64,000 bases of DNA from Dehalococcoidia bacterium (GCA_965221045.1 CBDCRO010000003.1:96016-160015); one strand, 5' to 3'. Counted from the first letter of the stretch, positions 61,267 to 61,925 are shown. Notes: generated from the letters alone by a model not told the origin. Numbers and translations are program-made.

Positions 61267-61448
61267 ACTTGTATGTTGTATTTGACTTGCAAGAGTGGCA
61301 GTGGGTGAGAGGGGCGCGTCGTGGGACACTGGGTGAGCTAGGAGAGATTCCTGGACTGCACCGCAAGTAGTAAGACTCCCCTCTCGCCGCACTTGTCGCT
61401 CCGAACAGATACAAGGGCGGAAGGCCCGGATCTGCAAGTGTGGAGCAA
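61267..61448 (+). ncRNA. orphan left-end/leader fragment of IS110 type 2 (copy d), truncated after ...GTGTGGAGCA
   Basis: It aligns with the leaders of copies a, b and c from ACTTGTATGTTGTATTTGACTTGCAA to ATCTGCAAGTGTGGAGCA. No transposase gene follows. Confidence 0.55.
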
Positions 61449-61460
61449 CCGTCTTGTTTG

Positions 61461-61700
61461 TCAAGCTGGATTGTCCTGATGATTCCAGTGCTGACCCGTC
61501 TTCACCATCGCATTGAGTATAGTCAGCAGCTTTCGCATGCAGGCCGTCAGCGCCAACTTCTTAGGCTTCCCTGCCGCCAGCAGCCGCTGGTAGAAGACTC
61601 GTAGCACCGGATTGTATCGACTGGCGACGAGTGCGCCCATGTAGAGCGCCGCGCGCAACCGGGATCTGCCGCCCCACACGCTGCGTTTGCCCCGACGAGG
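61461..61700 (-). pseudogene. C-terminal ~78 codons of a third IS110-family transposase type, cut by insertion of copy c
   Basis: [69 protein letters not shown] is the Transposase_20 C-terminus. The upstream part is replaced by the copy c left end at 61705. Confidence 0.7.
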
Positions 61701-61704
61701 ACCG

Positions 61705-61925
61705 CTTGTATGTTGCATAAGCCCCACAGATGGGCCAATCTGTGGGGTGGGCGAGAGGGGCGCGTCGGTGACCGCTGGGTGAGCCGGGCTACTGCTCTGG
61801 ACTGCACCGTGGGACAGTATGACACCCCTCTCGCCGCACTTGTCGCTCCGAACGGATACAAGGGCACCAGGCCCGCATCTGCAAGTGTGGAGGACATCAA
61901 CCATTATCTCATCGGGAGGTTGAAC
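61705..61925 (+). ncRNA. candidate bridge-RNA-like leader of IS110 type-2 copy c
   Basis: It has the same conserved blocks as the other copies, a perfect 10-bp 5' hairpin CCCCACAGAT/ATCTGTGGGG, and a variable block GACCGCT equal to the left flank plus core. Confidence 0.5.

What the first reader, a model, noticed from the sequence alone, without database searches (positions are those of the whole stretch)
61267..61925. A second guide position repeats left flank plus core in copies d (8/8) and c (7/7)
The position in question lies between the conserved blocks GCGCGTCG(G)TG and GGGTGAGC. In orphan copy d the leader reads GGGACACT there (61323-61330). That is identical to the DNA spanning the left junction (61262-61269, cGGGAC|ACTtg). 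In copy c the leader reads GACCGCT (61770-61776), identical to 61700-61706 (gGACCG|CTtg). Copy a has 5/7 at this position and copy b matches only at the core. The left guide is therefore same-sense and the right guide (previous finding) is antisense. This implies pairing to opposite DNA strands on the two sides of a CT core, which is how I recall the IS621 bridge RNA target loop working. A conserved downstream block, CGAACGGATACAAGGGC, contains ACGGATAC, the same as the right-end terminus ...AACACGGATACT of copy a. It also contains ATACAAG, complementary to the left-end start CTTGTAT, so it is a possible donor-binding loop. This last point is weaker because CTTGT/ACAAG could simply form a local stem.
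Basis: partly seen in the sequence, partly recalled or inferred. Interest (0 to 1): 0.75.

Follow-up and report, generated by a model that had tools for sequence, protein, structure and literature searches.

The report
Bridge RNA left target guide
The repeated 7-8 bases are the left target guide of a bridge RNA encoded by IS110-family jumping genes of marine Chloroflexota, an already known RNA-guided insertion mechanism, so the reading is right but the thing is an ordinary new member of a known kind.

Summary
In copy d, GGGACACT at 61323-61330 equals 61262-61269. In copy c, GACCGCT at 61770-61776 equals 61700-61706. Copy a matches 5/7 and copy b 3/7.

The four copies are IS110-group insertion sequences. 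Each has a DEDD plus serine recombinase about 30% identical to IS621, with a 221-nt leader in copy c.

I compared 80 related loci from Dehalococcoidia, SAR202 and Caldilineaceae genomes.
- The 9 bases before GGGTGAG track the left flank plus core in the same sense.
- The 7 bases before TATGAC track the core plus right flank in antisense.
- Both signals beat all 10,000 permutations.
- An unbiased scan of leader against target, in both senses, put its strongest and only consecutive signals on these two diagonals.

Compensatory base changes support the flanking helices (96.6% of cells paired). The two guide blocks form the two sides of an internal loop. This matches the IS621 target-binding loop.

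The downstream block matches the IS621 donor-binding loop. ACGGATACA is the right-end terminus in the same sense, and CAT...CAAG is antisense to the left-end start.

Copy d is not an orphan. A nested IS110 element cuts it.

Verdict: new member of a known kind.

The parts
61261..61269 (+). Copy d: left target flank plus CT core (CGGGACA-CT)
   Evidence: Matches the d guide at 8 of 9 positions.
61268..61445 (+). Copy d: truncated bridge RNA leader, running from the core CT to GTGTGGAG
   Evidence: The covariance model built from A3 (which includes this copy) aligns it, 159 bits. Homology to the intact d-type copies L057 and L058 ends after GGAG.
61322..61330 (+). Copy d: left target guide TGGGACACT (same sense, includes the core)
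   Evidence: The relatives L057 and L058 carry the same guide and match their own flanks 9/9 and 8/9.
61364..61370 (+). Copy d: right target guide CAAGTAG (antisense of CTACTTG)
   Evidence: Right flanks are CTATTTT in L057 and CTACTTT in L058. Copy d's own right junction is not in the window.
61405..61438 (+). Copy d: donor-binding loop, with ACAGATACA, the hairpin GGGC/GCCC, and GATCTGCAAG
61698..61706 (+). Copy c: left target flank plus CT core (AGGACCG-CT). It lies in the Asp-Ser-Gly codons of a minus-strand IS110 transposase fragment.
61705..61925 (+). Copy c: left end, encoding the bridge RNA (5' hairpin 61721-61748, target loop, donor loop)
   Evidence: The covariance model built from A3 (which includes this copy) aligns it, 217 bits. 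Consensus structure.
61768..61776 (+). Copy c: left target guide GTGACCGCT
   Evidence: Matches its own flank at 7 of 9 positions.
61810..61817 (+). Copy c: right target guide TGGGACAG (antisense of CTGTCCCA), followed by the handshake bases TA
   Evidence: The c-type relatives L011-L015 have right flanks CTGTCCCG or CTGTCCCC.
61852..61885 (+). Copy c: donor-binding loop. ACGGATACA is the left donor guide (same sense as the right-end terminus). The hairpin follows, then CATCTGCAAG as the right donor guide (antisense of CTTG.ATG).
   Evidence: IS621 has ACAGTATCA and TATTTGCAAG at the corresponding places.
61926..62879 (+). Copy c: recombinase gene (317 aa, DEDD RuvC-like domain plus serine Tnp domain)
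   Evidence: Pfam PF01548 and PF02371. It is 30% identical to the IS621 transposase, E 1e-30. PDB matches are 8wt6 and 9t56.
62880..62907 (+). Copy c: right end with the -35 box TTGACA (62894-62899). The last 7 bases, GGATACT, are missing.
   Evidence: Intact c-type relatives end TTGACATTGAACACGGATACT. Coordinates.
19059..20267 (-). Copy a: complete element. LTG 20196-20204, RTG 20155-20162, donor loop 20087-20120, recombinase gene (including stop) 19076-20047, right end 19059-19079.
   Evidence: The RTG TTTGGGAG is the exact reverse complement of the right flank CTCCCAAA (8/8). Removing the element with one CT restores a 207-aa integrase reading frame.
29744..30957 (-). Copy b: complete but probably decayed element. 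LTG 30885-30893, RTG 30844-30851. Its flanks do not fit its own guides.
61446..61704 (-). IS-X: the right end and last 81 codons of a different IS110-family element. It cut copy d and was in turn cut by copy c.
   Evidence: Transposase_20. The right end reads TTGACA plus 15 nt ending in CT.

Best explanation
The block between GCGCGTCG and GGGTGAG is the left target guide (LTG) of a bridge RNA. The RNA is encoded in the left end of an IS110-group insertion sequence.

Proposed mechanism:
1. The element excises as a circle.
2. Joining the right and left ends places TTGACA (right end) 17 bp upstream of TATGTT (left end), which creates a promoter.
3. That promoter transcribes the left end, about 180-200 nt of which is the structured region modelled here.
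4. The RNA folds into a 5' hairpin followed by two stem-loops, each with an internal loop.

First loop (target binding):
- The 5' side, 9 nt ending in CU, has the same sequence as the left target flank plus core. It would therefore pair with the bottom DNA strand.
- The 3' side, about 7 nt ending in AG, is antisense to the core plus right flank. It would pair with the top strand.
- The next base, U, can pair with the donor after strand exchange, as a handshake base.

Second loop (donor binding), which is nearly invariant:
- ACGGATACA matches the right-end terminus.
- CAT-nnn-CAAG is antisense to the left-end start.

A tetramer of the DEDD/serine recombinase would then exchange strands at the CT core.

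What is shown here: the sequence correspondences, the family-wide covariation of guide and flank, the RNA scaffold, the homology of the recombinase, and the exact element boundaries.

What is inferred from IS621: that the RNA is transcribed, that it pairs with DNA, and the chemistry of recombination.
For: Recombinase.
- All three full copies carry PF01548 plus PF02371.
- The copy c protein is 30% identical to the IS621 transposase over its full length, E 1e-30.
- The IS621 catalytic residues D11, E60, D102, D105 and S241 align with D8, E51, D93, D96 and S234.
- The solved IS621 and ISCro4 structures are the only PDB matches.

Guide and flank correlation, from 80 related loci.
- Left side: 60 unique junctions. 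The LTG matches the left flank at 4.97 of 7 non-core positions, against 2.96 (sd 0.16) after permutation. None of 10,000 permutations reached the observed value. Register shifts of 1-3 bases give 1.05-2.38.
- Right side: 55 unique junctions. The RTG matches at 4.16 of 6, against 1.87 (sd 0.18), again 0 of 10,000.
- There are 27 distinct LTGs and 25 distinct RTGs. Most agree with the consensus of their flanks at 7-9 of 9 and 6-8 of 8 positions.
- I scanned 200 leader positions against 26 target positions in both senses. The strongest and only consecutive signals lie on two diagonals; other cells reach z 3-5 but are scattered. Leader 64-69 is same-sense with target -8 to -3. Leader 107-111 is antisense with target +5 to +1, with z up to 9.
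- L020's recombinase is 96% identical to that of copy c, yet it carries different guides.

Structure.
- The RNAalifold consensus puts the LTG (columns 70-79) and the RTG (columns 118-125) on the two sides of an internal loop.
- The scaffold helices are 96.6% paired, and 21 pairs show changes on both sides. Slid controls reach at most 50%.

Comparison with IS621.
- The published description gives the same order and the same strand logic.
- The junction promoter has the same geometry in both: a -35 hexamer, then 15 nt to the end of the core, then TG, then the -10.
- The IS621 loops read ATCGGGCCT...GCGTAG-AT and ACAGTATCA...TATTTGCAAG-GT. Here they read GTGACCGCT...GGGACAG-TA and ACGGATACA...CATCTGCAAG-TG.

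Boundaries.
- Deleting copy a with one CT restores a 207-aa integrase reading frame.
Against: - No RNA or activity data exist for these elements.
- Rfam gives no match at the gathering threshold.
- My covariance model does not find the IS621 bridge RNA significantly. The best hit is E 0.099, at the correct place. RNA-level homology to IS621 therefore rests on architecture alone.
- The donor loop is nearly invariant, so its pairing cannot be tested by covariation. RNAalifold would also let parts of it pair internally.
- Ten of 54 unique insertions fit their own guides poorly (6 of 10 or fewer). Copy b fits at 1 of 10 and copy a's left side at only 5 of 7.
- In copy c alone, the minimum-energy fold pairs part of the LTG with part of the RTG.
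- The permutation tests do not correct for relatedness among the loci.
Confidence: 0.9

Rival explanations
1. The recombinase protein alone recognises the target. The internal copies of flank sequence would then be chance matches or by-products, for example of gene conversion from the insertion site, with no guiding role.
For: Copies a and b fit their flanks poorly, and 10 of 54 insertions fit their own guide badly. Many loci share a lineage, so part of the correlation could be inherited.
Against: - Twenty-seven different guides each go with matching flanks.
- The same guide is found at several different loci with similar targets. GTGACCGCT, for example, occurs at 10 distinct junctions.
- Recombinases that are 96-98% identical carry different guides and sit in different targets.
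- The antisense right block lies at a fixed position on the opposite side of the same loop.
- The guide mechanism has been shown experimentally for IS621.
Confidence: 0.04
2. The two variable blocks pair with each other. They would form a structural helix, or an attenuator of transposase expression, and would not contact DNA.
For: The minimum-energy fold of copy c pairs CCGC of the left block with GUGG of the right block. Across the family these six pairs are 52.6% paired, somewhat above the shuffled value (46.2%) and the slid values (24-31%).
Against: The figure of 52.6% compares with 95-99% for the real helices. Most of the excess comes from two conserved positions. The blocks covary with the flanking DNA rather than with each other.
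Confidence: 0.03
3. The downstream block acts through ATACAAG pairing in antisense with the left-end start CTTGTAT. It would not act as a same-sense left donor guide.
For: ATACAAG is the exact reverse complement of CTTGTAT in all four window copies.
Against: Across the family the base after ATACA is A, T, G or C, while the left end stays CTTGTATG, so the complementarity is not kept. IS621 has ACAGTATCA-TGG at this place with no such complement. A separate antisense block, CAT-nnn-CAAG, sits on the 3' side of the same loop, where IS621 has its right donor guide.
Confidence: 0.05

Closest known systems
IS621 bridge RNA and recombinase (IS110 group; Durrant et al. 2024, PMC11208160; Hiraizumi et al. 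2024, PMC11208158)
   Same: - The recombinase has the same two domains and the same catalytic residues.
- The RNA is encoded in a long left end.
- The RNA has a 5' hairpin followed by two internal loops.
- The LTG is on the 5' side, same-sense, and includes the core. The RTG is on the 3' side and antisense.
- The core is CT.
- The left donor guide ends in CA, not CT, in both.
- The right donor guide is discontiguous in both (CAT/TAT-nnn-CAAG).
- A handshake U follows the RTG core.
- The junction promoter has identical spacing.
- The left end begins CTTGTAT in both.
   Different: - The proteins are only 30% identical.
- RNA sequence similarity is too low for my covariance model to detect (E 0.099).
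- The hosts are marine Chloroflexota, not E. coli.
- The RTG is about 7 nt including the core.
- Targets here are often other mobile elements rather than REP sequences.
- Nothing has been tested experimentally.
ISCro4 transposase (PDB 9t56)
   Same: It is the best solved-structure match to the copy c recombinase, E 7.6e-31 over residues 5-308.
   Different: Its RNA and its targets were not compared here.
IS1111-group elements and seekRNA (RNA encoded downstream of the transposase gene)
   Same: They share the DEDD/serine recombinase family and RNA-guided target choice.
   Different: Here the RNA lies in a long left end upstream of the gene, and the right end is only about 35 nt. That is the IS110-group arrangement, not the IS1111 one (section 12 of the paper).

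Membership tests
IS110-group bridge RNA element (IS621 type) | [quoted passage not shown] | tested here: met
   PF01548 plus PF02371 in copies a, b and c. D8, E51, D93, D96 and S234 align with the IS621 catalytic residues. The only PDB matches are IS621 and ISCro4.
IS110-group bridge RNA element (IS621 type) | A long non-coding left end upstream of the gene, a short right end, and no long terminal inverted repeats | tested here: met
   The left end is 221 nt (61705-61925). The right end is about 35 nt in intact relatives.
IS110-group bridge RNA element (IS621 type) | [quoted passage not shown] | tested here: met
   RNAalifold on 45 leaders. The scaffold is 96.6% paired with 21 compensatory pairs. 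First-loop columns vary, and second-loop columns are nearly invariant.
IS110-group bridge RNA element (IS621 type) | The 5' side of the first loop equals the left target flank plus core (pairs with the bottom strand) | tested here: met
   4.97 of 7 matches against 2.96 permuted, with 0 of 10,000 permutations reaching it. Only register 0 gives a signal. The same-sense diagonal appears in the unbiased scan.
IS110-group bridge RNA element (IS621 type) | The 3' side of the first loop is antisense to the core plus right target flank | tested here: met
   4.16 of 6 matches against 1.87 permuted, 0 of 10,000. The antisense diagonal reaches z 9. Copy a matches 8/8.
IS110-group bridge RNA element (IS621 type) | The second loop matches the donor: the 5' side equals the right-end terminus and the 3' side is antisense to the left-end start | tested here: inconclusive
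   The sequences fit (ACGGATAC against ...ACGGATACT; CAT..CAAG against CTTG.ATG). Both the loop and the element ends are almost invariant, so covariation cannot be tested.
IS110-group bridge RNA element (IS621 type) | A dinucleotide core present at both junctions and included in the guides | tested here: met
   CT at 92-100% of junctions and guides. A few lineages have a left core of TT, TC or AT. Removing copy a with a single CT restores an open reading frame.
IS110-group bridge RNA element (IS621 type) | A sigma-70 promoter rebuilt across the right-end/left-end junction of the circle | tested here: met
   By sequence only: TTGACA, a 17-bp spacer across the junction, then TATGTT. The spacing is the same as in IS621. 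Expression was not tested.
IS110-group bridge RNA element (IS621 type) | Detectable RNA homology to the IS621 bridge RNA or a curated RNA family | tested here: not met
   Rfam gives no match at the gathering threshold. Model R1 against the IS621 locus gives a best E of 0.099. This is a limit of sensitivity and not a defining feature of the mechanism.
IS110-group bridge RNA element (IS621 type) | The RNA is transcribed, binds the recombinase and directs recombination | not testable with these tools
   This needs RNA-seq and a recombination assay.

The most novel reading that the evidence does not exclude
In these Chloroflexota genomes, several sub-lineages share one donor loop and one set of element ends but carry different target loops. 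Their bridge RNAs could therefore act in trans and place a relative's circle at their own target.

The c-type copies L001, L003, L005, L007, L008 and L009 sit at a site that fits the guides of the co-resident element L020 at 9 of 10 positions. They fit their own guides at only 3 of 10. L002, L006 and L024 behave in the same way.

In addition, the lineages are aimed at other mobile elements:
- the catalytic-serine codon of a rival IS110 transposase;
- a conserved motif of an IS1380-like transposase;
- a site next to the start of an IS256-like transposase gene;
- an integrase gene.

This would amount to a natural network of cross-guided, IS-against-IS insertion.
Probability: 0.3. Interest if true: 0.5.

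Novelty: new member of a known kind. Interest (0 to 1): 0.3.

Why it matters
The finding confirms that a reader with no tools correctly recovered the logic of a bridge RNA target loop from four copies.

It also documents a natural scaffold on which at least 25 different guide pairs are carried. The donor loop, the element ends and the recombinase stay almost unchanged. That is a natural reprogramming series for an IS621 relative from uncultured marine Chloroflexota.

The practical value is modest:
- a possible new ortholog for bridge-recombinase engineering;
- a data set on natural mismatch tolerance, in which the outer two LTG positions and the position next to the stem on the RTG side are loosely specified or not specified at all.

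It does not change what is known about the mechanism.

Tried and rejected
- Rfam at the gathering threshold found nothing in the window.
- My covariance model R1 did not find the IS621 bridge RNA, either with default filters or with filters off. The best hit was E 0.099 at the correct left-end start. The IS621 copy I fetched is also confounded by a tandem partial left end.
- A search for empty target sites found none. GGCAACTGTTCGG has no match in the held loci. The window holds no close match to the c-, d- or b-type targets. The only near matches to the c-type target are the DSGKK codons of the b and c recombinase genes themselves, each with 3 mismatches.
- I tested whether copy b's right flank is a transposase fragment like copy c's target. 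Six-frame translation shows no such reading frame, so copy b's flanks remain unexplained.
- I considered that the two guide blocks form a helix with each other. This was rejected on the pair counts.
- My first regular expressions misplaced the right end in 9 loci and the left guide in 4. Both were corrected before the statistics were run (then).

Full report
**1. What is there**

The window holds four copies of one leader sequence.
- Copy a: minus strand, 19059-20267.
- Copy b: minus strand, 29744-30957.
- Copy c: plus strand, 61705-62907.
- Copy d: plus strand, 61268-61445.

Copies a, b and c are each followed by a gene of 306-323 codons. Each gene carries the Pfam domains DEDD_Tnp_IS110 and Transposase_20.

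The copy c protein is 30% identical to the E. coli IS621 transposase over its whole length, E 1e-30. The IS621 catalytic residues align with identical residues. The only solved structures it matches are IS621 and ISCro4.

**2. The observation**

It is exact.
- Copy d: GGGACACT at 61323-61330 equals 61262-61269.
- Copy c: GACCGCT at 61770-61776 equals 61700-61706.
- Copy a matches 5/7 and copy b 3/7.

CT is fixed on both sides, so only 6 and 5 positions are free. At a pre-specified aligned position the joint chance is about 2e-7. After allowing for the choice of position, it is at or below about 2e-4 (my arithmetic).

**3. Family-wide test**

A protein-guided scan of one genome per species returned 80 related loci. 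They come from Dehalococcoidia, SAR202 and Caldilineaceae genome assemblies. The leaders align over their full length.

Two short blocks are hypervariable:
- the 9 nt between GCGCGTCG and GGGTGAG;
- the roughly 8 nt between CTGCACCG and TATGAC.

Left block (60 unique junctions):
- It matches the left flank at 4.97 of 7 non-core positions, against 2.96 (sd 0.16) after permuting flanks. None of 10,000 permutations reached this.
- Shifting the register by 1-3 bases drops the value to 1.05-2.38.

Right block (55 unique junctions):
- Its reverse complement matches the right flank at 4.16 of 6, against 1.87 (sd 0.18), again 0 of 10,000.

Per-position agreement:
- Left block: rises from 0.45 at the outermost position to 0.82-0.88 next to the core.
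- Right block: 0.67-0.89 for five positions, then 0.13 at the position next to the stem.
- The effective guides are therefore about 9 nt (graded) and 7 nt, core included.

There are 27 distinct left guides and 25 distinct right guides, and most agree with the consensus of their flanks.

I also scanned every leader position against every target position in both senses. The strongest and only consecutive signals lie on two diagonals; other cells reach z 3-5 but are scattered.
- Leader 64-69 is same-sense with target -8 to -3.
- Leader 107-111 is antisense with target +5 to +1, with z up to 9.

These permutations ignore relatedness. The number of distinct guide classes makes inheritance alone an unlikely cause. 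So does the fact that L020, whose recombinase is 96% identical to that of copy c, carries different guides.

**4. Structure**

RNAalifold on 45 distinct leaders gives four features:
- a 5' hairpin;
- a long stem enclosing an internal loop, whose two sides are exactly the two variable blocks;
- an inner hairpin;
- a second stem-loop with a nearly invariant internal loop.

Counted on the alignment, the scaffold helices are 96.6% paired. Twenty-one pairs changed on both sides, and slid controls reach at most 50%.

In copy c alone, the minimum-energy fold pairs part of the left block with part of the right block. Across the family that pairing holds in only 52.6% of cells. It is not a helix.

**5. 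Comparison with IS621**

The published description gives the same order and the same strand logic (PMC11208160).
- The RTG is on the 3' side and pairs with the top strand.
- The core is included in both.
- The second loop is conserved and binds the donor.

I fetched an IS621 copy from E. coli.

| Feature | IS621 | This family |
|---|---|---|
| Target loop | ATCGGGCCT ... GCGTAG-AT | GTGACCGCT ... GGGACAG-TA |
| Donor loop | ACAGTATCA ... TATTTGCAAG-GT | ACGGATACA ... CATCTGCAAG-TG |
| Left end starts | CTTGTAT | CTTGTAT |
| Right end stops | ACAGTATCT | ACGGATACT |
| Junction promoter | TTGCAG-17-TATTAT | TTGACA-17-TATGTT |

The base after the right-guide core is T in nearly all leaders. It is complementary to the A before the donor core. 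This is the handshake position described in PMC11208158.

RNA sequence similarity is too low for my covariance model to detect IS621 (E 0.099). Rfam has no match. The assignment therefore rests on protein homology, architecture and covariation.

**6. Donor loop**

The alternative, ATACAAG pairing with CTTGTAT, is not kept across the family. The base after ATACA is A, T, G or C, while the left end is constant.

Both the loop and the element ends are almost invariant. The donor pairing itself therefore could not be tested by covariation.

**7. Boundaries and context**

Removing copy a together with one CT restores a 207-aa tyrosine-recombinase reading frame.

Copy d is not an orphan.
- Its homology to intact d-type copies stops after GTGTGGAG at 61445.
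- A minus-strand IS110-family element (IS-X) ends there with TTGACA plus 15 nt ending in CT.
- The last 81 codons of the IS-X transposase follow (61464-61706).

Copy c sits inside IS-X. Its CT core falls in the AGC codon of the catalytic Asp-Ser-Gly motif. The relatives L011-L013 and L017 occupy the homologous site.

Copy c itself lacks its last 7 bases. A fourth IS110-family element (IS-Y, gene from 63116) begins there.
- The predicted IS-Y leader has an internal loop.
- The 5' side, ATTTAACACT, matches its left flank ATTGAACACT at 9 of 10 positions.
- The 3' side, TATCCG, is antisense to the missing CGGATA.

**8. Exceptions**

Forty-four of 54 unique insertions fit their own guides at 7 or more of 10 non-core positions.

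Of the ten that do not, four fit another family member's guide pair at 8-9 of 10.
- The clearest case is a set of six c-type copies in one genome.
- They lie in an IS1380-like gene, at a site that fits the co-resident element L020.
- Bridge RNA works in trans for IS621.
- Cross-guidance is therefore plausible. A later swap of the target loop is an alternative.

Copy b fits nothing on the left. On the right it fits only the c-type guide. A preprint reports half-matched off-target insertion for IS621. For copy b, that explanation is speculation.

**9. Verdict**

This is an ordinary IS110-group bridge RNA element from a host lineage in which, as far as I could find, it has not been described. It is a new member of a known kind, of low to moderate interest.

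Noticed in passing
window 59957-64000: A nest of five mobile elements. In order: an IS256-like transposase gene (59957-61153, minus strand); copy d, cut at 61445 by a minus-strand IS110 element (IS-X); IS-X, cut at 61705 by copy c; copy c, cut at 62907 by another IS110 element (IS-Y, gene from 63116, running off the window).
   Followed up: partly
window 61698-61706: Copy c is inserted so that its CT core falls in the AGC serine codon of the catalytic Asp-Ser-Gly motif of IS-X. The c-type relatives L011-L013 and L017 sit at the homologous site of similar transposase genes. This lineage therefore appears to be aimed at a rival IS110 transposase gene.
   Followed up: partly
window 62899-62981: The predicted IS-Y leader has an internal loop. 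Its 5' side, ATTTAACACT (62951-62960), matches its own left flank ATTGAACACT (62899-62908) at 9 of 10 positions. Its 3' side, TATCCG (62976-62981), is antisense to CGGATA, the piece of copy c's right end that is missing. This is a second, unrelated bridge RNA in the window obeying the same rule. The core reads CT in the left guide but CG in the right guide.
   Followed up: partly
L001, L003, L005, L007, L008, L009 (c-type copies, genome CBDCTG01), junctions near 1279 and 2700: Six c-type copies lie in an IS1380-like transposase gene (..LVGGD|CIDDAD..). The site, GGGGCGA-CT-GCATAG, fits the guides of the co-resident element L020 at 9 of 10 positions and their own guides at 3 of 10. L002 and L006 fit copy-a-type guides, and L024 fits the TAGGCAACT type. 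This suggests either cross-guidance in trans or a swap of target loops.
   Followed up: partly
L062, L063, L066, L067, L068, L072, L073 and L025, left junctions: Some lineages have a left core of TT (TC in L063) and carry TT in the left guide, yet keep CT at the right junction and AG in the right guide. L025 has AT at the left junction and GT in its guide. The two copies of the core need not be identical.
   Followed up: no
window 29738-30964 (copy b): Copy b's flanks fit its own guides at only 1 of 10 non-core positions. Its right flank, CTGTCCCG, fits the c-type right guide at 5 of 5. Its gene is shorter (306 codons) and its right end reads GGAAACT instead of GGATACT. It may be a decayed or mis-targeted copy.
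   Followed up: partly
window 18463-20345: Copy a interrupts a tyrosine-recombinase (Phage_integrase) gene after about codon 24. Removing the element with one CT restores a 207-aa reading frame.
   Followed up: yes
L081 (E. coli IS621 locus) 1785-1870: This IS621 copy carries a partial tandem left end. A second left-end start (TTGTATTATCCC) follows directly after the guide-coding ATCGGGCCT of a first, truncated leader. It looks as though IS621 inserted into the DNA that encodes its own left guide, which mimics its target.
   Followed up: no
window 21865-29589 and 48381-59825: Two very long reading frames (2574 and 3814 codons) lie between the insertion sequences. They were not examined.
   Followed up: no
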